In this document: one piece after another, positions 2,082-53,705 of the stretch
Position numbering within the stretch: the stretch's first letter is position 1
Layout of the letters: each line of letters opens with the position of its first letter
NCBI GenBank assembly: GCA_041650715.1
Contig: JBAZKQ010000001.1
Span: 326,945 to 390,944, forward strand
DNA from: Patescibacteria group bacterium
GTDB taxonomy: Bacteria; Patescibacteriota; Patescibacteriia; Patescibacteriales; UBA12465
DNA: 64,000 nucleotides
Direction of reading: 5' to 3'
The notes under the pieces: model-generated
What the model was told of the DNA's origin: nothing
Database searches by the model: none
What the model saw: only the letters and a program-made list of their open reading frames with translations
Translations under genes and position numbers: made by a program

Positions 2082-2477
2082 TTATTTTAAGGTTACTTTT
2101 GCACCGGCTTCTTCCAATTTTTTCTTCATGGCTTCAGCTTCGGCTTTCTTAACACCTTCCTTAAGAACTTTCGGGGCGCCATCGACTAAGTCTTTAGCTT
2201 CCTTTAAGCCCATTTCTGTCAATTCACGGACAGCTTTGATAACGTTGATCTTGCTGGCACCCGCTTCAGTGATTTCAACATCAAAGGCATCTTTCTCTTC
2301 GACAGCGGCCGCTGCACCGGCAGCCGGAGCCATCATCATGGCTGGAGCAGAAGCGCTCACGCCGAATTTATCTTCCAAGATTTTAACGAGTTCCGCTAAA
2401 TCAAGGACGCTCATCTTTTCGATTTCGCCAACCAGCTTTTCAAATTTTGCCGGGACGACAACTTTGTTTTCTTCCAT
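2082..2477 (-). CDS. rplL: 50S ribosomal protein bL12 (L7/L12)
   Basis: 131 aa. Ala-rich hinge ([16 protein letters not shown]) and canonical C-terminal domain [48 protein letters not shown]. Confidence 0.97.
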
Positions 2478-2516
2478 AGATTTAAAATTAAATTTATTAT
2501 TAATTATTTATTGTTA

Positions 2517-3047
2517 TTAAGCTTTCTTTTCTTCGAGCGCTTTTAAAACATAAAGCAAATTTTTGATGTTTCCGGCTAAAGCGTTAACAAATCCGGAAAT
2601 CGGCGCATTCATCGTGCCGACTAAACGGCCATAAAGCTCTTGTTTGCTCGGTAGTTTGGACAAGGCTTCCATTTCTTCTTTGTTCAGTAATTTATTTTCT
2701 AAAATACCGCCCAAGAAGAAGATACGTGCTTCCTTGTCTTTGTCTTTACGGAAATTACCGACAATCTTAGCGGCGGCGACTTCATCTTCGTAGGAAAAGA
2801 TGGCAGCTAATTTTCCGTCCATCGTTCTGACGTTCAGGTCACTCATCTGATCCTTGAAAGCGATGTTCATCAAGGTTTTCTTAGCGACATAGTACTCGCT
2901 GTTTTCGCTACGTAATTGGTCGCGCAATTTTTCGTTGTCCTTAACCGTTAAGGCATTGAAACCGGCAAAAACCACCGATTTGGACTTCTTAAATTTTTCG
3001 CTCAAATTACGCAAAATTTCTTGTTTTTGAATTTTGTTCTTTGGCAT
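2517..3047 (-). CDS. rplJ: 50S ribosomal protein uL10
   Basis: 176 aa, immediately upstream of rplL. The N-terminal half (KSKSVVFAGFNALTVKDNEKLRDQLR..) is uL10-like. Confidence 0.92.
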   Translation of the reverse strand: MPKNKIQKQEILRNLSEKFKKSKSVVFAGFNALTVKDNEKLRDQLRSENSEYYVAKKTLMNIAFKDQMSDLNVRTMDGKLAAIFSYEDEVAAAKIVGNFRKDKDKEARIFFLGGILENKLLNKEEMEALSKLPSKQELYGRLVGTMNAPISGFVNALAGNIKNLLYVLKALEEKKA

Positions 3048-3190
3048 ATATATTTAATTTGATTATAAAAAAATCTGTGTGACCACAGACCATAAAAATA
3101 CTTGGATAAAGTATTAATGATACCTCGGCAAGACTTATAGGTGCGTGGCACCAGGCTGGCTGTCTGTGGTTATCGCTAAATTGTTATGTA
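3048..3190 (-). promoter_or_regulatory. rplJ leader with terminator/antiterminator alternative (L10-leader-like attenuator)
   Basis: On the minus strand, accacagac pairs with gtctgtggt about 85 nt downstream. The same gtctgtgg segment can instead form tctgtg-gtca-cacaga followed by a T7 run (plus coordinates 3067-3089), just before the rplJ start. Confidence 0.55.
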
Positions 3191-3193
3191 AGA

Positions 3194-3221
3194 ATATTAG
3201 CAGATTATAAGTATTTGTCAA
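3194..3221 (-). promoter_or_regulatory. sigma70-type promoter for rplJ-rplL
   Basis: Minus strand TTGACA (3221-3216), 16-nt spacer, TAATAT (3199-3194). Confidence 0.6.
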
Positions 3222-3233
3222 GGATTATCTCTT

Positions 3234-4412
3234 CTATTTGAGTTTTTTGCTCTTATCGCGCTTGCGGCCATAATTAGCAAAACGATGGGCTTCTTCGCGC
3301 AACTTAAGAAGAGTCGGTTTTATGTTGTTGGCCAGATCGCGAATTTCATTTTTGGTCTTCGGAGTGAAAACTAATTTATCGCCGCCGAATTTAGAAATGC
3401 CGACGAGCGGGATGTTAATATTATTCTCGGTGAAGACGCGCGATAAAAAACTAATCTGCGGCGAGCCGCCGTCAATCATGATAATGTCAGGCATGGTCCA
3501 TTCCGTATGTTTAAAACGGCGCAAGAGCACCTCGCTGAGCGCGCGTTCATCGTCTCCGCCCGGCGCGTCTTTGATTTTAAAAAGGCGATACTCGCGTTTA
3601 GCCGCTTCCCCGTTTTCGAAAACCACCATCGAGCCGTAGCTTTCTTTACCTTGGTGATGAGAAATATCATAGCCTTCCAGGCGGTTAACTTTTAATTCAT
3701 TGAGATCTTCGTCGCGAGTCAGCAAGGAAACGTCCTGAATATGTTTAAGAGCGTTTATTTTATCCGGATTGTCTCGCATCAGTTTGGCGGTAAGTCGTTT
3801 CTTTTCACCGGCCAAAAGCAAGGAAATATTATTAATATTTTTTTTATAGTCACGCGCCGAAATAGCGTCAATACAGCCGCCCGGGCAAAGTCCGATTTGA
3901 TAATCGAAACAAGCCCGCCCGCTATGGGGCGTGCAGTTGCCGTAAGGGAAAATGCGTCGAATCAAACGGAGAGCTCCCTGGAGAAGATAGAAAGACTGGT
4001 AAGGCCCAAAGACTTTTGCCTTTGAGGCTGGAAATTTCTTTAAATCAGTCGCGCGCACGATTAGCGGCTTGGCAAAATCAATTTTCGGAATAACGACATA
4101 GATAAAGGAACGGTCATCACGGTCAACGATATTATACTTGGGCCAGAATTTTTTAATATTTTTCGCCTCAAGAATAATCGCTTCAAGTAGGGTGTCGCAG
4201 ACTTCATATTTTATATCAGAAGCGGCGTCCACCATCTCGGCAATGCGCGGCGAAATGTTTTTTTGGAAGTATTGGCTCAGGCGATTTTTTAAACTTGTGG
4301 CCCGGCCGACATAAAGAACCTTGCCTTTTTTATCCAACCAAAAATAAACTCCCGGCTTTTTCGGAATTGTTTTTAGTTTATTTTTTAATTGATTTTTTAG
4401 AGTTAAACTCAT
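3234..4412 (-). CDS. uvrC: excinuclease ABC subunit C, compact form (GIY-YIG + Cys-rich region + RNase H-like endonuclease domain only)
   Basis: GIY-YIG N-terminus (PGVYFWLDKKGKVLYVGRATSLKNRLSQYF). Four-Cys region (CTPHSGRACFDYQIGLCPGGC). C-terminal nuclease motifs (LEGYDISHHQG, IIMIDGG). 392 aa versus about 600 aa for the typical protein. Confidence 0.9.
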   Translation of the reverse strand: MSLTLKNQLKNKLKTIPKKPGVYFWLDKKGKVLYVGRATSLKNRLSQYFQKNISPRIAEMVDAASDIKYEVCDTLLEAIILEAKNIKKFWPKYNIVDRDDRSFIYVVIPKIDFAKPLIVRATDLKKFPASKAKVFGPYQSFYLLQGALRLIRRIFPYGNCTPHSGRACFDYQIGLCPGGCIDAISARDYKKNINNISLLLAGEKKRLTAKLMRDNPDKINALKHIQDVSLLTRDEDLNELKVNRLEGYDISHHQGKESYGSMVVFENGEAAKREYRLFKIKDAPGGDDERALSEVLLRRFKHTEWTMPDIIMIDGGSPQISFLSRVFTENNINIPLVGISKFGGDKLVFTPKTKNEIRDLANNIKPTLLKLREEAHRFANYGRKRDKSKKLK

Positions 4413-4707
4413 AAAGATATTTGCTTAGGTCAATTTTGTTGTCCTTAATAATAATACCTTCTTGGCGGAGAATGGCAATCTTGCGCTTGGGGCCGCTTGC
4501 AAAACCGCCGACTTCCCCGTTGGCGCGGATAACTCGGTGGCATGGGACAAGAGGCGCAAACGGATTTTTATTTAAGGTGTTACCGACGGCACGCGCTGCA
4601 CCAGGATTATTTAGAGCTCGGGCAATTTCTTTATACGTTGAAATTTTACCCTTGGGAATAAGGGCGCAATATTTATAGACGAGCTGTGGAAAACTTAAGT
4701 TATTCAT
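4378..4707 (-). CDS. ogt: methylated-DNA--protein-cysteine methyltransferase (MGMT/Ogt DNA-binding/catalytic domain only)
   Basis: 109 aa with the active-site motif PCHRVI and a helix-turn-helix region (ISTYKEIARALNNPGAARAVGNTL). Overlaps the uvrC start by 35 nt. Confidence 0.9.
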   Translation of the reverse strand: MNNLSFPQLVYKYCALIPKGKISTYKEIARALNNPGAARAVGNTLNKNPFAPLVPCHRVIRANGEVGGFASGPKRKIAILRQEGIIIKDNKIDLSKYLYEFNSKKSIKK

Positions 4708-4708
4708 A

Positions 4709-4736
4709 TTGACAATTTTTTAGCGTCTGATAATAT
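4709..4736 (+). promoter_or_regulatory. consensus sigma70-type promoter driving the plus-strand RNA below
   Basis: TTGACA 4709-4714, 16-nt spacer, TAATAT 4731-4736. Confidence 0.6.
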
Positions 4737-4740
4737 CAGG

Positions 4741-5024
4741 GTAGTTAGTCGTGGTTTGTCTAAGTTGCCCGCCTAACGCGCAGAGTTCATTTTACATTGC
4801 AATCCCGACACAAGGGATTTCCGGCCCGAAATAAGAAATGAAATTTCTTTTTCTCGAGAAAGGTGGCGAAGCAGATTGAATAATATCAACAGCATCATCA
4901 CATTCTTTCATCCAGAAAGAAATTTACCCCGAGCAGGCAAAAAGCTTATTAGGTCCTAAAGAACCGTGAAATTGAGTAAGGAAAACGTTATAACGTATTC
5001 CAACTTAAGACCCACGGTTTTTTT
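4741..5024 (+). ncRNA. candidate structured non-coding RNA of unknown class (~280 nt)
   Basis: ORF-free 315-bp gap. A promoter lies just upstream. Nt 4750-4767 pair with 5001-5017, followed by a T7 run. Internal long rod hairpin at 4840-4926 and local hairpins at 4801-4819 and 4985-4996. Confidence 0.5.
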
Positions 5025-5880
5025 ATTTGCTTAAAAGTCCAATCAGTAGGCTGGCGCCGACCGCCAGGCCTGCGCCGAGGTATTGAATTTTCGTTATCTT
5101 TTCTTTATTAATAATTATGCCAAGCGCAAGCGCAATAACGACATAACTTTCGGTTATCGCGATCGTAATTGAGAGTTCTTCTTTGGCAACAGCGAAGACA
5201 TAGGCTGTCCAAGCCAAGAGATCGACGACTACCATCACTAAAACGAGAAGCCAATTTTTCGCGCTCTCCCGGAAAAAATTATTTAAACTATTCTGGCGGA
5301 TCCAGACAAAACAGATTAATCCGCAAACAAACCATGGCAGCCAGAGGGCCATCAAGGGTGATATTTCCTTGGCCTGCGAAGCACTGCCGAAGTTTACGAT
5401 AGCGATTAAGACGCCGGAGAGAATTGCGAGCAGCGAGCCTTTTTCTAAAAAATCCTTTTTATTTATTTTAGTAGTATCAATCGAAATTAGAATGATGCCG
5501 ATAAATAAAATGATAATTAAGAATATTTGTCGCAGACCGAGACTCTCTCCGAAAACAAGAATGCCGAGCAGGATTGTTAAGGGTAGCTCAATCGACATGA
5601 TTATTTCGACGACCGATAGTTTTCCGATTTCCAAGGCTTTAAAATGAACATAACCGCTGGCAAAATTTGCCAGCCCTAAAATAATTAGGGTGATGAATTG
5701 CGCAGAGTTAATAGTTTTTAAGTCGTTAACTACAAACGGAATTAAAATTATTGAACTGAATAAACTAATCCAACAAAGGGTTTCAATTGGTCCGATTTTA
5801 TTAATTGTTTTTTGAATTAAAAAATCGCCCAAGCCCCAGCCGAACATCGCGCCAAATGCCAGTAGTATCGCTAAATTCAT
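5023..5880 (-). CDS. EamA/DMT-superfamily transporter
   Basis: 285 aa with about 10 predicted TM helices and a two-fold EamA-like architecture. Confidence 0.75.
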   Translation of the reverse strand: MNLAILLAFGAMFGWGLGDFLIQKTINKIGPIETLCWISLFSSIILIPFVVNDLKTINSAQFITLIILGLANFASGYVHFKALEIGKLSVVEIIMSIELPLTILLGILVFGESLGLRQIFLIIILFIGIILISIDTTKINKKDFLEKGSLLAILSGVLIAIVNFGSASQAKEISPLMALWLPWFVCGLICFVWIRQNSLNNFFRESAKNWLLVLVMVVVDLLAWTAYVFAVAKEELSITIAITESYVVIALALGIIINKEKITKIQYLGAGLAVGASLLIGLLSK

Positions 5881-5882
5881 AG

Positions 5883-8396
5883 TTACTTTAAATACTCTTT
5901 TAAATATTTTCCCGTAATGCTTTTCGGTTCGCGGACAATATCTTCCGGCGCGCCATGAGCGACCAAACGTCCCCCGTCTTCCCCGCCGTCCGGACCAAGA
6001 TCAATAATATAGTCCATTGATTTTAGCATATGCATATTATGCTCGATCACTAAAACAGAGTTTCCCTTCTCGACCAGTTTATTTAAAACGGCGAGCAACA
6101 TATCGATATCATAATAATGCAAACCAGTGGTCGGTTCATCGAGTAAATATAAAGTCCGTTTGCCGAGAGTATGAGTCAGCTCTTTGGCAATCTTAATGCG
6201 TTGGGCTTCCCCGCCTGATAAAGTCGTGGCGCTTTGGCCAATCTTAATATAACCGAGTCCGACTGATTGTAGAACTTTTAATTTATCAGTGATAAAATAA
6301 TTTCCTTCGAAATGATCAATTGCTTCATCAATGGTTAGGTCCAGGATCTCGGCGATGTTTTTATTTTTATATTTGACTTGTAAGGTTTCCCGGTTAAAAC
6401 GTTTACCGCGGCAAACTTCGCATTCAACCAGCACGGGAGGCAGAAAATGCATCTCTATTAGGTTCGCTCCGGCCCCCTGACAGGCCTCACAACGCCCACC
6501 AGGGCGGTTAAAGGAGAAACGGCCAATTCCGTATCCTCTCTCCCGGGAATCGGGCAAGGAGGCGAAAAAATCACGAATCGGGGTAAATATTCCGGTATAG
6601 GTAGCCGGGTTAGAGCGTGGCGTGCGGCCGATAGGCGATTGGTCGATAACTACTACCTTGTTTATGTATTCCGCGCCCCTGACATCTTTGGCAAATTCCA
6701 GTTTCGCTTTACCCGGGCGGTTTTTAATATGCGTGATATTTTTATAAACGACATCATATAAGAGCGATGATTTGCCGCTTCCGGAGACACCACTCACGCC
6801 GACAAGACGGCCGAGCGGGATTTCCACATTTAAGTTTTTTAGGTTATTAGCATAAGCGCCGACAATTTTTAGGGAGCCATGATTTTGTTCGCGCCGTTTG
6901 GCCGGTAAGCCGATTTCGCGTTGGCCGGCCAGGTATTGGAGAGTTAAAGATTTTTTTAGTTCTGTTTGATTCTTTTTTTCATTTAATAAATCCTTAGTAT
7001 TGCCACTCGCCACAACCTCCCCGCCGTGTACCCCGGCGAGCGGTCCCATATCAACTAAATAATCGGAGGCAAGTATCGTTTTTTCGTCGTGCTCAACAAT
7101 AATAACGGTATTATTTTTATCCCGTAATTTTTTCAGAGTGTCGATTAAGCGTTCGGTATCGCGTTCGTGCAAACCGATAGTCGGTTCATCCAGAACGTAG
7201 AGGGTGCGCGAAAGATGGGAGCCGATTTGGGAAGACAGGCGGATGCGCTGCGCTTCGCCCCCGGATAAAGTATGAGCTTCCCGTTCTAACGAAATATAAT
7301 TCAAACCGACTTTAAGTAAAAACTCAAGACGACTGATAATTTGGATAACAACATTCTCCGCGATTATTCTTTGGCGCTTCGTCATCTTCTCATAATATTT
7401 ATTAAAGAAGTCTAAACTTTTATTCATCGGTAGGCGGCAGACTTCGGCAATATTTTTACCGGCGATGCGGACTGATAAGGCTTCGGGGCGTAAACGGTCG
7501 CCTTTGCAGACCTTGCATTTATCATCCTTAAAGAAATTAGTTTTGCCGAGTCCGGAACATTCCGGGCAGGCGCCATGCGGTGAGTTGAAAGAGAAAAGAC
7601 GCGGTTCAACTTCCGGAAAAGAAAAATTATCATTCGGGCAGGTCCAATTTGATGATAATAAAAATTCTTGTTTTTTATATTGGGCAATAACCAGACCTTT
7701 ACTGTATTCGAGCGAATTTTCGACAGCCTCAAAAAGGCGCGATTGGTCGCTCAGTAGAATTTTATCGATAATGATTTCAATATCATGTTTTTGTTTTGGT
7801 GCGAGTTTAACTTGATCACGCAAGGAATGAATTTTTCCGTCGATGCGCGACTCGCTATAGCCGAGCGATAAATAATTATAAAGTATTTGGTAATATTCAC
7901 CTTTGCGGTCGCGGACAATCGGTGACATGATAGTAACATATTCTTCTTTTAATTCCTGACCGCGGTTGATAATAATATCCACCATTTCCTCAACAGTTAG
8001 TTTTTCAATTTTAGTGCCGCAGATTGGGCAAAAAACTTCGCCCACGCGCGCATAAAGAACACGCAAGTAATCATAAATATCCGTGAGTGTCCCCACAGTT
8101 GAACGCGGATTATGAGAGAGGGCTTTTTGATCGATAGAGATGGATGGAGCGAGACCAATCATCTCATCGACATCGGCCGCTTTCTTTTGACCCAAGAATT
8201 GGCGCATATAGGGCGACAAGGATTCGACGTATTGTCTCTGCCCTTCCGCAAAGATTGTATCAAAAGCCAGCGACGATTTGCCGCTCCCTGAAACGCCGGT
8301 AATAACGGTTAATTTATTATGCGGTATTTCTAAGTTGATATTTTTTAAGTTGTGCGTCCGCGCGCCGCGGATGATTAATTTTTCTTCACTTGCCAT
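5883..8396 (-). CDS. uvrA: excinuclease ABC subunit A lacking the insertion domain
   Basis: Two ABC modules ([10 protein letters not shown] twice, LSGGEAQRI twice) plus zinc modules. [11 protein letters not shown] is followed after 10 aa by CKVCKGDRL, where E. coli UvrA has about 110 aa. 837 aa in total. Confidence 0.95.
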
Positions 8397-8982
8397 ATTG
8401 GTTGTTTATAAACGGATTAGGTATATCAAAAGTAATTTTTTTGGTTTCTTTATTTATTACGTCAATTGGCGTGCCATATTTTTTATTATAGAGAGTATCC
8501 ACAGAACAGAATAGCGCCTGGCTATAATCAAAACCCAATTTTTCGCTAACTGTTTTTACTTCCTCTTCGGATTTTCCCTCGACTTCGACGTAGGGTTCAA
8601 GATAAGGCCATTCATCAATCATTACTTCGACACCATCCAAAGACCATAACTCGCGATAGCTTTCCTGGTAAGCTTTTTGTTTAGCCCCGATAGTTTCTAA
8701 AAAGTTAATACCTTCATTATAATTATCAATTTTAAGACAAATCTCTTTTTGGTCATCAATATTTGAGCCATTAACCAATTTAAAACTCATAGTAATCTTG
8801 TCCTGTTCATCCCTGACTCTTAACCATCCGCCCTTAATTTGATGTCCGCTTGGTAAATCAAGGCAGACTCTTTTTTGTAAAAATTCAGGTTTGATTAAAG
8901 TTGCGCCAGTTTCTTTTAATCTATTTCTGATTTCTTCTTTGTTAATATTAGTAAATGTTGCCTCGTATTCAATATTGATCAT
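8386..8982 (-). CDS. CYTH-domain protein (CyaB/triphosphatase-like)
   Basis: 198 aa. The N-terminal strand INIEYEATF resembles the CYTH ExExK signature with K replaced by T. Overall length and charge pattern fit the CYTH barrel. Overlaps the uvrA start by 11 nt. Confidence 0.5.
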
Positions 8983-9066
8983 AGTATTGACAATTATATT
9001 ATAATGTGTTATGATTATATTTCGCAGTTCTGTTATTCCGAAACTAACCCCCTAATCCCTATATTT

Positions 9067-9654
9067 ATGCGTTCTGTTCTTTTCATCGCCATTTTCGTGC
9101 TTTTGGCCAGCGCAATGTCTAATGCTCAGTCCATCGAGGCTTTTGCCAAGTTTGACCAGAATGGCAAACTCGTTAATAAAGATGCCAATATGGCGTTCTC
9201 AATTGCTCTGTCGAAGGATACGACCAGTTTCTGGAGCCATATGAAGTTTACTTCATTTATCCTTGTTGAGCCAGGTTGGGGCGAGTCAATGTTCGGTCTG
9301 TCCTACGCTCCGGCCAGCTGGGTCGAAATCGGTCTATCTGGAGGATTTGAGCAAAACCCGAATGTCTATCGCGGCTGTGCCACTCTCTGGCTTGGCAAAG
9401 GCAGGTTTTCCTCCTTCACTGCCTTCGAAAGGGGTGTCGGACACGATAATTGGTGGTATAGGAATATTACCAAGTATAAGGTGTCAGATGACATTTCGCT
9501 TGGTTTCCAGGGTTGGCGATATAATGGACTCGGCCCGATAATCGAGTTCGGCATTGTCAAACATGTCACGATCTGGATTAACCCGGTCTTAGACCCGGAA
9601 AAAGATAGTAACGGCAACAAAGCCGTAATAGTAGGTCTGGGGATTAACTTGTAA
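9067..9654 (+). CDS. secreted beta-strand-rich protein, unknown family
   Basis: Signal peptide MRSVLFIAIFVLLASAMSNAQS. Alternating aromatic/Gly-rich strands. The ATG at 9067 is preferred over the track start at 9004. Upstream TTGACA (8990) with TATGAT 17 nt later. Confidence 0.6.
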   Translation: MRSVLFIAIFVLLASAMSNAQSIEAFAKFDQNGKLVNKDANMAFSIALSKDTTSFWSHMKFTSFILVEPGWGESMFGLSYAPASWVEIGLSGGFEQNPNVYRGCATLWLGKGRFSSFTAFERGVGHDNWWYRNITKYKVSDDISLGFQGWRYNGLGPIIEFGIVKHVTIWINPVLDPEKDSNGNKAVIVGLGINL

Positions 9655-9675
9655 TCACCCGCCGAACAGCGTACC

Positions 9676-9705
9676 GAGCTTCTACTTTAGGAGCTCTTTT
9701 TTTTT
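9676..9705 (+). terminator. intrinsic terminator
   Basis: Stem gagctt / gagctc followed by a T9 run, directly after the 9067..9654 gene. Confidence 0.65.
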
Positions 9706-9724
9706 ATTTCAATTTACAGGTATT

Positions 9725-11560
9725 TTAATCTTCCGCCACGTCCAAAAATTCTTCAATTTTTTTGGTAATCGTGGTTGGGGTTATATTATATTTTTTGTTA
9801 TAAGCTAATTGTTTCGTGCGGCGGCGTTCAGCTTCATTAATCGCCCGTTTCATCGAATCGGTTTTTTTATCGGCGTATAGAATAATTTTACCTTTAACAT
9901 TTCTCGCGGCGCGGCCCATGGTTTGCATGAGTGAGGTTTGACTGCGTAAGAATCCTTCACGGTCGGCGTCCAGAATCGCCACCAGCGTTACTTCCGGCAA
10001 ATCAAGGCCTTCGCGCAACAGATTAACGCCGATTAAAACATCAAACTTCCCTTCCCGAAAATTCATCAATATTTCAGTGCGCTCGAAAGTTTTAATATCA
10101 GAATGTAGATAATTAGATCTGATGTTTTTATTATTTAAGTAGGTATTCAAATCTTCGGCTTGTTTTTTGGTTAAGGTATTAATAATGGCTCTTTCGCCAA
10201 GCGCAGCAATTTTAATTACTTCGGCCGTGATATCATTAATTTGGCTATAATTTTCTTTCTTGTTAAAGACCGGGCGGATTTCAATCTCGGGATCAACAAG
10301 ACCGGTCGGACGAATTACTTGTTCGGCAGTTTGCTTTGAGTTTTTTGCTTCAAAATCACCGGGAGTGGCAGTCGTAAAAATCATTTGGCCGATACGTTTT
10401 TCAAATTCCGGAAAACGTAGAGGGCGATTATCAAGGGCTGAGGGTAGGCGCCAGCCATATTGCACTAAAGTTTTTTTACGTGCTTGATCGCCGTTATACA
10501 TGCCGCGAATTTGCGGGATAGCGATATGAGATTCATCGACGATAGTTAAAAAATCCGGCTTACCATCTTTCCAGGGGAAATAGGAAATTAAAGAGTCCGG
10601 TGCTTCCCCGGCAAGTTTCCCTGTGATATGGCGCGAGTAATTTTCTATGCCGTGGCAGTAGCCAAGCGTGCGCAGCATTTCCATATCATATTTTGTGCGC
10701 CGCTCTAATCGTTCCGCTTCGAGTAGAAAACCCTCCTTTTTAAAATAGGCTAAGCGTTCTTTTAATTCCTCATTAATATTTTTTATCGCCTGCTCAATCT
10801 GTGGTTTTGTGGAAACAAAATGCTTCGGCGGAAAAATAACAATTTCTTCGAGGTTACCGATAATATTTTTTGTGACATTATCAACGATAGTTAAATCTGA
10901 TATCACTTGTCCGGCGAGGTCGAGACGATAAATAACATTCTCCGACATGGAGCGAATTTCAAAAGCATCACCGCGCACGCGAAATTGGCCGCGCTTAATT
11001 TCGCCGTTGACGCGTTCAAATTGGATTTTAATTAATTGCTTAATTAAATCGGCGCGGACAATCGTCTTCCCTTTTTCTAAAACGAGACGCGCCTCTAAAT
11101 AAGTTAGCGGCACGCCCAAATTATATATACAGGAAACGGAAGCAACGATGATGACATCACGGCGTGAAACTAAAGCCGAAGTCGCCCCATGACGTAAACG
11201 ATCAATCTCTTGGTTAATCATCGCCTCCTTATCAATATAAGTATCGGTAATCGGCAGATAGGCTTCTGGTTGATAGTAGTCGTAATAGGAAACAAAATAA
11301 TGAACCGCATTTTCCGGAAAGAAGTTTTTGTATTCGCGGTAGAGTTGCGCCGCCAGTGATTTATTGGGGGCAATTACTAAAACTGGTCGGTCCAGTTCAC
11401 TTATGACATTGGCGACGGTAAAAGTCTTTCCCGACCCGGTAACGCCCAGTAAAGTTTGGTAATCATAACCCGCCTCTATTCCTTGTAAGAGTTTTTTAAT
11501 AGCTGCCGGTTGGTCACCGGCTGGCGCGAAATCAGATTTTAACTTAAATAATCCGGACAT
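9725..11560 (-). CDS. uvrB: excinuclease ABC subunit B lacking the C-terminal UVR domain
   Basis: N-terminus FKLKSDFAPAGDQPAAI, helicase motifs (GVTGSGKT, DESH), and an end ..ERRRTKQLAYNKKYNITPTTITKKIEEFLDVAED without the coiled-coil UVR tail. The ATG at 11560 is preferred over the TTG at 11572. Confidence 0.95.
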   Translation of the reverse strand: MSGLFKLKSDFAPAGDQPAAIKKLLQGIEAGYDYQTLLGVTGSGKTFTVANVISELDRPVLVIAPNKSLAAQLYREYKNFFPENAVHYFVSYYDYYQPEAYLPITDTYIDKEAMINQEIDRLRHGATSALVSRRDVIIVASVSCIYNLGVPLTYLEARLVLEKGKTIVRADLIKQLIKIQFERVNGEIKRGQFRVRGDAFEIRSMSENVIYRLDLAGQVISDLTIVDNVTKNIIGNLEEIVIFPPKHFVSTKPQIEQAIKNINEELKERLAYFKKEGFLLEAERLERRTKYDMEMLRTLGYCHGIENYSRHITGKLAGEAPDSLISYFPWKDGKPDFLTIVDESHIAIPQIRGMYNGDQARKKTLVQYGWRLPSALDNRPLRFPEFEKRIGQMIFTTATPGDFEAKNSKQTAEQVIRPTGLVDPEIEIRPVFNKKENYSQINDITAEVIKIAALGERAIINTLTKKQAEDLNTYLNNKNIRSNYLHSDIKTFERTEILMNFREGKFDVLIGVNLLREGLDLPEVTLVAILDADREGFLRSQTSLMQTMGRAARNVKGKIILYADKKTDSMKRAINEAERRRTKQLAYNKKYNITPTTITKKIEEFLDVAED

Positions 11561-11583
11561 ATTAATAATCAATATTAACGGGT

Positions 11584-53270: not shown

Positions 53271-53705
53271 CTATTTAGTTATTTCCCACTTTTCTATTGC
53301 ACCAGACACTACCGTAAATAAAAAATGGGCTTCCAACCGTTTAATATCTTTAATCTCTGAATATTTTTTGTTGTCTCTAATCTTTAACTTCTTAAGTAGG
53401 TGAGAAAATTCGTAATCAAGCTGACCGCTATTTACTTTAATCTTTTTACTTAAAATTTTCAAGGTCTTAATCTTATCAGCCGAAAATTTATAGCCACGTG
53501 CTTCTGCTTCTAAATATATACCGTATAAATAAGCATTAATATTTACCAAAGCGTCCCTACTTTCTTTAAAACGGATTAGTTGCGGATGATTTTTATAACC
53601 CTTCGTATTCCCTTCCAGAACTTTTTTGGCAAGCAGGGCTTCTCGCCAGAGGGCCAAGAGACCTTGGCGATCAAGATATCGCGGGGAGAGGCTCCATAAA
53701 CGCAT
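53271..53705 (-). CDS. pyrimidine dimer DNA glycosylase (T4 endonuclease V-like, Pyr_excise family)
   Basis: The N-terminus MRLWSLSPRYLDRQGLLALWREALLAKKVLEGNTKGYKNHPQLIRF is characteristic of the family. Confidence 0.8.
   Translation of the reverse strand: MRLWSLSPRYLDRQGLLALWREALLAKKVLEGNTKGYKNHPQLIRFKESRDALVNINAYLYGIYLEAEARGYKFSADKIKTLKILSKKIKVNSGQLDYEFSHLLKKLKIRDNKKYSEIKDIKRLEAHFLFTVVSGAIEKWEITK

What the first reader, a model, noticed from the sequence alone, without database searches (positions are those of the whole stretch)
4709..5024. Orphan ~280-nt structured RNA gene with a consensus promoter, antisense to all neighbouring genes
A 315-bp ORF-free gap sits in a genome where most junctions are under 50 bp. 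On the plus strand I read TTGACA (4709-4714), a 16-nt spacer and TAATAT (4731-4736), which puts a transcript start near 4741-4744. Nt 4750-4767 (cgtggtttgtctaagttg) pair with 5001-5017 (caacttaagacccacgg), and a T7 run (5018-5024) follows immediately. The 5' and 3' ends are therefore closed by a helix of about 15 bp, as in several stable RNAs. Inside that helix I see an irregular rod hairpin of about 87 nt (4840-4926), with aaatttcttt/aaagaaattt at the base, gaaag/ctttc and gtgg/tcac in the middle and ttga/tcaa at the tip. There are also local hairpins at 4801-4819 (aatccc/gggatt) and 4985-4996, and a long-range aataag/cttatt pair (4829-4834 with 4945-4950). Every flanking gene is on the other strand, so it is not a 5' leader or riboswitch. 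By eye I could not find the RNase P signatures (GGAAAGUCC, ACAGAA..GGCUUA), tRNA-like ends of tmRNA, or a convincing SRP domain IV.
Basis: partly seen in the sequence, partly recalled or inferred. Interest (0 to 1): 0.7.

Follow-up and report, generated by a model that had tools for sequence, protein, structure and literature searches.

The report
New structured small RNA gene family
The gap holds a real, stand-alone gene for a roughly 280-nt folded non-coding RNA. It belongs to a fast-evolving family, found so far only in one group of ultra-small (Patescibacteria/CPR) bacteria and matching no catalogued RNA family, and its one constant sequence looks like the BoxA signal of ribosomal RNA transcripts.

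Summary
A 315-bp ORF-free gap (4708-5022) carries a near-consensus promoter (TTGACA-16-TG-n-TAATAT) and, 280 nt on, a long hairpin followed by T7, both on the + strand. No Rfam family, tRNA or tmRNA matches.

The genome is a Patescibacteria (CPR) MAG. At least ten relatives (UvrC 79-92% identical) carry a homologous unit at the same site, between uvrA/EamA and ogt/uvrC. Others carry shorter or longer variants, some as tandem pairs.

The fold is conserved while the sequence drifts:
- 5' hairpin P1
- a single-stranded GUUCUUU motif
- hairpin P2
- terminator

Covariation supports this fold: 17 pairs changed on both sides versus 6.8±2.0 in shuffles.

It competes with P1 and the terminator, 7 of its 15 pairs break in the nearest relative, and it is no better than shuffled controls.

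No ORF is conserved. The constant motif fits the core of BoxA (GYUCUUUAANA), the NusB/S10 anti-termination signal of rRNA leaders. I infer, but have not shown, that it shields this untranslated RNA from Rho. The function of the mature RNA is unknown.

The parts
4709..4714 (+). -35 hexamer TTGACA; sits one base from the ATG of the - strand ogt gene (4705-4707)
   Evidence: The CAT-AT-TGACA junction recurs in about ten of the relatives' units that abut ogt or uvrC.
4728..4736 (+). Extended -10 element, TG-n-TAATAT
   Evidence: The same TGATAATAT is present in L003, L023, L026 and L062.
4743..5024 (+). Predicted transcript of about 282 nt. The start is inferred from the -10 element; the end is the U-run.
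   Evidence: nhmmer finds homologues in L062, L026 and L023. No experiment supports the ends.
4744..4777 (+). P1, the 5' hairpin (base GUUAG/CUAAC)
   Evidence: In the MFE fold. Kept in L062 with GC->GU and UG->UA changes. The equivalent helix in subgroup A3 has 7 pairs changed on both sides.
4785..4796 (+). Single-stranded conserved motif GUUCAUUUUACA (family consensus GUUCUUU-U/G-N-A); BoxA-like
   Evidence: G1, U2, U6 and U7 are invariant and C4 is present in 21 of 23 RNAs. Predicted unpaired probability is 0.77 against 0.37 for the whole RNA. The published consensus is GYTCTTTAANA (PMC5725501).
4801..4819 (+). P2 hairpin AAUCCC/GGGAUU
   Evidence: Present in all ten type-A RNAs. The outer pairs vary: U-A/C-G and A-U/G-C/G-U.
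4823..4835 (+). P3 5' strand (GGCCC-GA-AAUAAG)
   Evidence: The outer five pairs covary across subgroups: G-C/A-U and A-U/U-A/C-G/U-G.
4841..4925 (+). Its base is AAAUUUCUUU/AAAGAAAUUU, with an inner CUcGAG/AUCcAG element.
   Evidence: Five of eight L062 differences fall in its loops or bulges and three open the top of the basal helix. The inner base pairs covary: C-G/G-C and U-A/C-G.
4927..4937 (+). P5, a weak 2-bp CC/GG hairpin in the junction
   Evidence: It is a real 3-5 bp hairpin in L003, L023, L026 and L066, but only CC/GG in the window.
4945..4956 (+). P3 3' strand (CUUAUU-A-GGUCC)
4957..4962 (+). A-rich linker UAAAGA. On the - strand it reads UCUUUA just after the same hairpin.
   Evidence: Sequence. 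An A-rich linker is conserved in all type-A RNAs. Its use as the U-tract of a two-way terminator for EamA is inferred; the terminator scan did not list it.
4963..5024 (+). Intrinsic terminator: a long hairpin (ACCGUG...CACGGU, tip ACGU-UAUA-ACGU) plus U7. The U-run overlaps the EamA stop codon by 2 nt.
   Evidence: The tip pair changes U-A to C-G in L062. The base pair U-A in the window is A-U in eight relatives.

Best explanation
**Shown**
- Window 4709-5024 is a stand-alone gene on the + strand for a non-coding, structured RNA of about 282 nt.
- It has a near-consensus sigma-70 promoter as strong, by sequence, as the genome's rplJ promoter. It ends at an intrinsic terminator.
- It belongs to a lineage-restricted, fast-evolving RNA family that holds the same site, between uvrA/EamA and ogt/uvrC on the opposite strand, in related Patescibacteria.
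- The family keeps a fold rather than a sequence: P1 hairpin, single-stranded GUUCUUU motif, P2 hairpin, long-range helix P3 closing a junction with rod P4 (and P5), then the terminator.

**Inferred (about 45% likely)**
- The one motif common to every variant is a BoxA element. On the nascent RNA it would recruit NusB-S10 and the other Nus factors to RNA polymerase.
- This untranslated, strongly transcribed RNA would then be shielded from Rho and would fold co-transcriptionally, as in rRNA operons and CRISPR arrays. The intrinsic terminator would still stop it.

**Not shown**
- What the mature RNA does. The most likely role is a stable protein-binding or scaffold RNA acting in trans.
For: **Promoter and terminator**
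- Both are on the + strand.
- The rplJ promoter has the same two hexamers, 16-nt spacer and TG.

**Not a known RNA, not coding**
- No Rfam family matches at gathering or E<=10, and none matches the relatives' units.
- No tRNA or tmRNA is found.
- No peptide is shared between subgroups. Indels of 1, 2 and 3 nt separate the window from L062.

**Homology**
- The site is syntenic in L003, L023-L026, L062, L064, L066 and L069.
- nhmmer from the window hits L023 and L026 at E 6e-5 and 2.5e-4.
- A covariance model built from four other relatives hits L024a (1.5e-22), L026 (3.4e-6) and L003 (1e-4).

**Structure**
- Subgroup A3: 93% of cells are paired, and 17 pairs changed on both sides against 6.8±2.0 in shuffles (0/500) and 1-4 when partners are slid.
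- Subgroup A2: the same architecture is predicted, with 7 of 44 pairs compensatory.
- The hand-aligned core helices across all ten RNAs are 93% paired, with several pair types in P3, P4, P2 and the terminator base.
- Window versus L062: changes avoid paired columns (odds ratio 0.35, p = 0.004), with one U-A to C-G swap.
- G-U pairs favour the + strand.

**Motif**
- It is conserved in 23 RNAs of five types.
- It is predicted to be more open than the rest of the RNA (0.61 against 0.41, p = 0.0009).
- It fits the first seven positions of the published BoxA consensus GYTCTTTAANA.
- BoxA is known to protect other untranslated RNAs from Rho, and its consensus drifts between phyla.
Against: - There is no transcript evidence; both ends are predictions.
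- The window's own motif, GUUCAUUUUACA, matches only 6 of the 10 specified BoxA positions.
- The rRNA-leader BoxA of this lineage could not be fetched for comparison.
- Whether these genomes encode NusB or Rho was not tested. Neither was found among the roughly 63 window ORFs scanned against Pfam; the two ORFs past 61.5 kb were not scanned.
- The covariance model built from subgroup A3 did not reach the window itself.
- The covariation structures came from RNAalifold on the same small alignments (3-5 sequences), and the cross-family table is hand-aligned.
- Some relatives (L030, L032, L037, L050, L052-L054) have no gap at this site, so the RNA is not universal there.
Confidence: 0.65

Rival explanations
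1. Cis-acting antisense or transcriptional-interference element. What matters is the act of strong + strand transcription, which starts one base from the ogt/uvrC start codon. It would collide with, or pair with, the - strand ogt-uvrC transcript and so set the level of the repair genes. The RNA product would be secondary.
For: - The -35 hexamer abuts the ATG of ogt or uvrC (CAT-AT-TGACA) in the window and in about ten relatives' units.
- No good - strand promoter for ogt lies between the terminator and ogt, so any ogt 5' UTR must overlap the RNA gene.
- The neighbours form a repair cluster: uvrB, uvrA, ogt and uvrC.
Against: - Helices far from the overlap (P3, P4, the terminator tip) covary and are kept. 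Mere interference would not require that.
- G-U pairs fit the + strand RNA.
- A single-stranded motif is conserved in all variants.
- Tandem second copies lie hundreds of bases away from the start codon.
Confidence: 0.15
2. Base-pairing trans-acting sRNA. The open GUUCUUU element would be a seed or an Hfq/Sm-like chaperone site, flanked by hairpins and followed by a terminator with a U-tail, as in classical regulatory sRNAs.
For: - It has its own promoter and terminator.
- The conserved U-rich element is accessible and lies between two hairpins.
Against: - No target stands out among 63 translation-start regions of the window (best -15.4 kcal/mol against a mean of -9.1±2.4).
- The RNA is longer and more elaborately folded than most such sRNAs.
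- Whether the lineage has a chaperone gene was not tested.
Confidence: 0.12
3. A highly diverged housekeeping RNA (6S, SRP, RNase P or tmRNA) that the Rfam models fail to recognise in this lineage.
For: - The promoter is very strong and the gene stands alone.
- The size is in the range of such RNAs, the sequence drifts fast while the fold is kept, and some relatives carry paired copies.
Against: - No hit to any of these models even at E<=10, and no tmRNA by ARAGORN.
- There is no conserved 5'/3' closing stem.
- By eye I found no SRP domain IV motif, no RNase P P4 sequences and no tRNA-like ends.
- The RNA is absent from this site in several relatives.
Confidence: 0.05
4. No RNA function: a spacer holding DNA-level signals (promoters, operator sites, a two-way terminator), or a small-protein gene.
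For: - On the - strand the motif reads as a -10-like TAAAAT/TAAAAA in several members.
- The hairpin can serve as a terminator for EamA.
Against: - In type C the reverse complement of the motif is not -10-like. The invariant part (GUUC) falls outside any promoter hexamer, and no consistent GAAC/GTTC dyad exists.
- Compensatory changes occur in helices.
- No conserved ORF exists.
Confidence: 0.03

Closest known systems
BoxA (nut-like) antitermination elements of rRNA operon leaders, CRISPR-array leaders and the suhB 5' UTR
   Same: - A short single-stranded G-Y-U-C-U-U-U element lies near the 5' end of a strongly transcribed RNA, untranslated in the rRNA and CRISPR cases, next to hairpins. rrn leaders have the order boxB hairpin, boxA, boxC (my own knowledge).
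- Its known job is to keep Rho off untranslated RNA.
   Different: - No rRNA, CRISPR array or ORF lies downstream. The transcript ends at an intrinsic terminator about 230 nt later.
- Positions 8-11 differ from the gamma-proteobacterial consensus.
- Binding to NusB-S10 is untested.
6S RNA (Rfam RF00013)
   Same: A stand-alone, strongly promoted RNA of roughly 200-300 nt. The sequence evolves fast while the fold is kept. Paralogous copies occur in some genomes.
   Different: - There is no long closing stem joining the 5' and 3' ends, and by eye no large central bubble.
- No model hit even at E<=10.
- This RNA instead has a 5' hairpin, a junction domain and a terminator.
Lineage-restricted structured RNAs of unknown function found by comparative genomics (for example raiA, OLE, ROOL and HEARO motif RNAs, all in Rfam)
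   Same: - Discovered as a long conserved intergenic region with covarying helices and no coding capacity.
- Restricted to one bacterial group.
- Multi-helix junction architecture.
   Different: - It matches none of their models.
- It is smaller than OLE or ROOL.
- It is found in Patescibacteria at a fixed site within a DNA-repair gene cluster.
Classical trans-acting bacterial sRNAs with an intrinsic terminator
   Same: Own promoter, an accessible conserved element between hairpins, and a terminator hairpin with a U-tail.
   Different: It is about three times longer and carries a conserved three-way-junction domain. No target or chaperone has been identified.

Membership tests
6S RNA | Match to the Rfam covariance model RF00013 or its variants | tested here: not met
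   No hit at gathering score or at E<=10 on 4600-5150.
6S RNA | 5' and 3' ends pair in a long closing stem, giving a rod with a central bubble | tested here: not met
   The closing helix costs 14.8 kcal/mol and loses 7 of 15 pairs in L062. 5'/3' complementarity is no better than shuffles in all ten type-A RNAs.
6S RNA | Binds the RNA polymerase holoenzyme and templates pRNA | not testable with these tools
   Requires biochemistry.
SRP RNA / RNase P RNA / tmRNA | Match to the Rfam models; tRNA-like ends and a tag ORF for tmRNA | tested here: not met
   No Rfam hit. ARAGORN finds no tRNA or tmRNA in 4500-5200.
Riboswitch / T-box / ribosomal-protein leader (cis-regulatory 5' leader) | A regulated gene downstream on the same strand | tested here: not met
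   The next + strand ORF of 100 aa or more begins at 9004. EamA and uvrA downstream are on the - strand. The same holds in the relatives.
Riboswitch / T-box / ribosomal-protein leader (cis-regulatory 5' leader) | A known aptamer or T-box fold | tested here: not met
   No Rfam hit.
Type I toxin-antitoxin antisense RNA | A conserved small hydrophobic ORF on the opposite strand | tested here: not met
   The - strand ORFs (39 and 42 aa) are not membrane-like. Indels of 1-2 nt relative to L062 interrupt them. No peptide is shared between subgroups.
BoxA (NusB-NusE binding element) | Sequence fits the BoxA consensus (GYUCUUUAANA in gamma-proteobacteria) | tested here: inconclusive
   The family consensus GUUCUUU-(U/G)-N-A fits positions 1-7. 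The window's copy fits 6 of 10 positions; L023, L063 and type C fit 8 of 10. The consensus is known to drift between phyla.
BoxA (NusB-NusE binding element) | Single-stranded, near the 5' end of a strongly transcribed RNA (untranslated in rRNA and CRISPR arrays) | tested here: met
   It lies 42 nt from the predicted start, between P1 and P2. Unpaired probability is 0.77 against 0.37 in the window and 0.61 against 0.41 over 23 RNAs.
BoxA (NusB-NusE binding element) | The same element occurs upstream of the organism's own 16S and 23S rRNA genes | not testable with these tools
   No rRNA gene is present in the window or in any of the 77 fetched loci.
BoxA (NusB-NusE binding element) | The genome encodes NusB (and Rho), and the RNA binds NusB-S10 | not tested
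   Neither gene was found among the roughly 63 window ORFs scanned. The rest of the genome was not available.
Conserved structured ncRNA (general criterion) | Helices kept through compensatory changes in relatives | tested here: met
   Caveats: the alignments are small and the structures were derived from them.

The most novel reading that the evidence does not exclude
The hairpin-BoxA-hairpin module is the only part common to all variants at this site, including the minimal 133-157-nt ones. These abundant stand-alone RNAs may therefore act through that module in trans, as decoys that titrate NusB-S10 (Nus factors) and so tune rRNA synthesis in ultra-small CPR cells. That would be a '6S-like' logic applied to the antitermination machinery, for which I know of no precedent.
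Probability: 0.1. Interest if true: 0.8.

Novelty: new member of a known kind. Interest (0 to 1): 0.5.

Why it matters
- My literature searches found no described regulatory or structured RNAs in Patescibacteria/CPR. These bacteria have tiny, tightly packed genomes, so 300-800 bp of conserved non-coding sequence driven by a promoter of ribosomal-protein strength is unlikely to be idle.
- The result defines a new RNA family with a testable fold.
- It corrects the proposed secondary structure.
- It points to a concrete, checkable link (a BoxA-like element) between a stand-alone small RNA and the Nus/Rho transcription machinery.

Tried and rejected
1. **Known RNA families.** Rfam at gathering and at E<=10 on the window, L003, L069, L071 and 20 loci gave only junk hits or L10 leaders elsewhere. 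ARAGORN found nothing.
Rejected.
3. **ogt as an anchor to collect relatives.** The gene is scattered by horizontal transfer, its nearest hits are DPANN archaea, and only L003 was useful. This spent the single genome-contig scan.
4. **Automatic MAFFT alignments across subgroups.** These were poor, so I analysed subgroups separately and aligned the core helices by hand.
5. **Covariance models.** The shorter model built from four A3 sequences reached A2 but not the window. I did not iterate, because its alignment of L026 was unreliable.
6. **Riboswitch-like antiterminator.** CUUAUU can pair with AGUAAG in the terminator's 5' arm in the window, but by inspection of the sequences there is no equivalent in A2 or A3. 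Rejected.
7. **The motif as a - strand -10 box or a LexA-type GAAC/GTTC dyad.** Inconsistent across members. Rejected (sequences).
8. **Seed-target search in the window.** No outlier.
9. **Other copies.** None in the 64-kb window. The two other GTTCATTT sites in gaps lie in a promoter spacer and inside a small ORF.
10. **Viral contigs.** No match to the family's terminator pattern.
11. **Type C alignment.** Too poorly aligned to add evidence.
12. **Literature.** Searches for CPR non-coding RNAs or NusB/Rho in CPR found nothing relevant. Arnvig et al. 2008, on BoxA across phyla, is not held.

Full report
**What is in the sequence**

The window comes from a Patescibacteria (CPR) metagenome-assembled genome. 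The ogt protein recurs exactly on a 758-kb ENA contig, and the closest UvrC homologues carry the names Patescibacteria or Falkowbacteria.

On the - strand the neighbourhood reads uvrB, CYTH, uvrA, EamA, [gap], ogt, uvrC, rplJ, rplL.

The gap 4708-5022 has no ORF of 100 aa or more. It is the eighth-largest of 64 junctions, whose median is 41 bp.

On the + strand it carries these signals:
- TTGACA (4709-4714), a 16-nt spacer, then TG-n-TAATAT (4728-4736). The rplJ promoter has the same two hexamers, 16-nt spacer and TG.
- Some 230 nt further on, a long hairpin (4963-5018) followed by T7 (5018-5024). The T-run overlaps the EamA stop codon.

The 283-nt stretch folds much better than shuffles (z = -4.25). 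The reverse strand does nearly as well (z = -3.8), so folding energy alone does not pick the strand.

**It is not a known RNA and not a protein gene**
- Rfam 15 finds only a tRNA in the whole window. It finds nothing better than E of about 1 in the gap on either strand.
- ARAGORN finds no tRNA or tmRNA.
- The short ORFs in the gap are interrupted by 1-, 2- and 3-nt indels in the nearest relative.
- No peptide is shared between subgroups of relatives on either strand.

**Relatives**

ogt proved a poor anchor. Its nearest homologues are in DPANN archaea, and only one Patescibacteria locus (L003) came back. UvrC was a good anchor: hundreds of homologues at 74-92% identity, 39 metagenome loci and 16 more loci fetched by exact look-up.

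In many of these, the stretch just upstream of ogt or uvrC, on the opposite strand, holds one or two units, each with a strong promoter and a terminator.
- **Type A.** Ten units are clearly homologous to the window's: L062, L003, L023, L026, L024a, L066, L025, L064 and L069a, plus the window itself.
- **Other types.** Longer (type B, about 430 nt), differently built (type C, about 320 nt) and minimal (type D, 133-157 nt) variants hold the same site. Some form tandem pairs: A+B in L024 and L069, D+C in L071 and L075.
- **No gap.** A few relatives have no gap at this site (L030, L032, L037, L050, L052-L054).
- **Rfam.** None of these units matches any family.

Sequence drifts quickly. The window sequence alone detects only L062, L026 and L023 by nhmmer. 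A covariance model built from four type-A3 sequences reaches L024a, L026 and L003, but not the window. Homology to the window therefore rests on three things: the nhmmer link to L023 and L026, the identical site and promoter junction, and the shared order of elements.

**The conserved fold**

Three subgroups, analysed independently, give the same architecture. It is also the minimum-free-energy fold of the window RNA taken alone.

| Element | Window coordinates |
|---|---|
| P1, 5' hairpin | 4744-4777 |
| Single-stranded motif | 4785-4796 |
| P2 hairpin | 4801-4819 |
| P3, long-range helix | 4823-4835 with 4945-4956 |
| P4, irregular rod | 4841-4925 |
| P5, small hairpin | 4927-4937 |
| Terminator hairpin | 4963-5018 |

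Evidence from each comparison:
- **Subgroup A3 (five sequences).** 93% of cells are paired. Seventeen pairs changed on both sides, against 6.8±2.0 in shuffles (0 of 500) and 1-4 when the partners are slid by 1-3 columns.
- **Subgroup A2 (three sequences).** 7 of 44 pairs are compensatory, including the base of P4.
- **Across all ten RNAs.** A hand alignment of the alignable core helices is 93% paired.
  - P3's outer pairs show G-C/A-U and A-U/U-A/C-G/U-G.
  - P4's inner base shows C-G/G-C and U-A/C-G.
  - The terminator base shows U-A in the window and A-U in eight relatives.
- **Window versus L062.** I used the window-only fold as the model, so it is independent of L062. Changes avoid paired columns (16 of 182 paired against 23 of 106 unpaired; odds ratio 0.35, p = 0.004). 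The 3-nt insertion falls in the P4 tip loop, and the terminator tip pair swaps U-A for C-G.
- **Strand.** G-U pairs would be C-A mismatches on the other strand, so they favour the + strand.

These alignments are small and the structures were derived from them. The numbers are supportive rather than definitive.

- Confirmed and conserved:
  - the rod (P4);
  - the 4801-4819 hairpin (P2);
  - the 4985-4996 hairpin (the terminator tip);
- The 15-bp helix joining 4750-4767 to 5001-5017 can be drawn (-16.4 kcal/mol), but the evidence is against it:
  - enforcing it costs 14.8 kcal/mol;
  - it destroys both P1 and the terminator;
  - it loses 7 of 15 pairs in L062;
  - 5'/3' complementarity is no better than shuffled controls in any of the ten RNAs.

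The ends are therefore a 5' hairpin and a terminator, not a closing stem. That also removes the main resemblance to 6S-type rods.

**The one constant element**

All 23 RNAs of all types share a short motif, almost always between a 5' hairpin and a GC-rich hairpin. Only L077, where the motif begins 14 nt from the predicted start, seems to lack the 5' hairpin. At the first seven positions the counts are G 23/23, U 23/23, U 18/23, C 21/23, U 17/23, U 23/23 and U 23/23, followed by U or G, any base, then mostly A.

A loose form of the pattern occurs by chance about 0.3 times per kb per strand. The motif is predicted to be more open than the rest of the RNA: 0.77 against 0.37 in the window, and 0.61 against 0.41 overall (p = 0.0009).

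GUUCUUU is the core of BoxA, the NusB-NusE(S10) binding site of rRNA leaders. The published gamma-proteobacterial consensus is GYTCTTTAANA (PMC5725501).

BoxA also protects CRISPR-array transcripts from Rho. Its consensus is reported to drift with phylogenetic distance (PMC7665894).

From memory, not from a held paper, the Firmicutes/Mollicutes rRNA version is GUUCUUUGAAAAC. That string is the standard Mycoplasma 16S-23S spacer PCR primer (PMC3019172), and it is close to the type-C copies (GUUCUUUGCAAU).

From this I infer that the motif recruits Nus factors to the polymerase making this untranslated RNA. That would shield it from Rho and aid folding, while the intrinsic terminator still ends it.

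This inference could not be tested. No rRNA gene is present in any sequence I hold. The presence of nusB or rho in these genomes is unknown. The window's own copy matches only 6 of the 10 specified positions. I put it at roughly 45%.

**Alternatives weighed**
- **DNA-level reading of the motif.** A - strand -10 box or a LexA-type dyad does not hold across members.
- **Riboswitch-like alternative pairing.** It is not conserved.
- **Interference or antisense role.** This stays possible as an added layer, because the -35 hexamer abuts the ATG of ogt or uvrC in about ten relatives' units. It does not explain covarying helices far from the overlap.
- **Base-pairing sRNA.** No mRNA target stands out in the window.
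- **Diverged housekeeping RNA.** Unlikely, given the failed membership tests.

**Verdict**

This is a real, previously uncatalogued, lineage-specific structured small-RNA gene. Its secondary structure is corrected here, and a BoxA-like module offers a testable lead. What the mature RNA does remains unknown. I rate it a new member of a known kind (a bacterial structured sRNA), with interest 0.5.

Noticed in passing
L024:1757-2200, L069:1453-1900, L071:1970-2515, L075:1950-2515 (RNA strand is '-' in locus coordinates): Several relatives carry two different promoter-plus-terminator RNA units in tandem at this site (type A + B, or D + C). Each has its own GUUCUUU-like motif followed by a hairpin. 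None matches Rfam.
   Followed up: partly
window 4378-4707 (-): The 109-aa ogt-like gene (only the PF01035 domain, PCHRV site present) has its closest homologues in DPANN and other archaea, at up to 67% identity. Only one Patescibacteria hit (72%) turned up in the species-representative genomes. It is present or absent among close relatives, which suggests horizontal transfer.
   Followed up: partly
L023:3695-3990: In L023 the ogt region is recognisable at the DNA level (the PCHR motif is readable), but no ORF of 90 aa or more remains. It is probably a pseudogene next to an intact RNA unit.
   Followed up: no
window 4705-4714, and the same junction in L003, L023, L026, L027, L062, L068, L073, L075, L077: The start codon of ogt or uvrC and the -35 hexamer of the RNA promoter are fused as CAT-AT-TGACA. 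The 5' UTR of the repair genes must therefore run antisense through the RNA promoter.
   Followed up: partly
window 4957-5018: The A-rich linker before the terminator is conserved in all type-A RNAs. It gives the same hairpin a U-rich tail on the - strand, so the hairpin may also terminate the convergent EamA/uvrA transcript.
   Followed up: no
window 4857-4862 with 4910-4915; also L003, L023, L024a, L026, L062, L066: The base of P4 holds a conserved element, NN-C-GAG paired with CUC-C-NN, with an invariant C-C mismatch. Similar C-N-GAGAAA strings recur three times per RNA: on the P4 5' strand, the P4 3' strand and the terminator 5' strand.
   Followed up: no
window 3194-3221 (-) and 3048-3193 (-): The rplJ promoter has the same two hexamers, 16-nt spacer and TG as the RNA promoter. 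Rfam's L10 leader model hits this position in L036, L041 and L043, but not in the window.
   Followed up: no
L027:5863-6085 (+) and L025:7867-8002 (+): Weak nhmmer hits of the family profile (E = 0.001 and 0.014) lie inside the large conserved ~750-aa ORF of unknown function, on its antisense strand. They contain ACCGTGTTTTTTATAATTATCCCTAAAAAGGGAAT, which resembles the motif plus P2. This is probably chance.
   Followed up: partly
window 2082-11572: uvrB, uvrA and uvrC are clustered with ogt and with rplJ-rplL in one - strand block. A pyrimidine-dimer glycosylase lies at 53271-53705.
   Followed up: no
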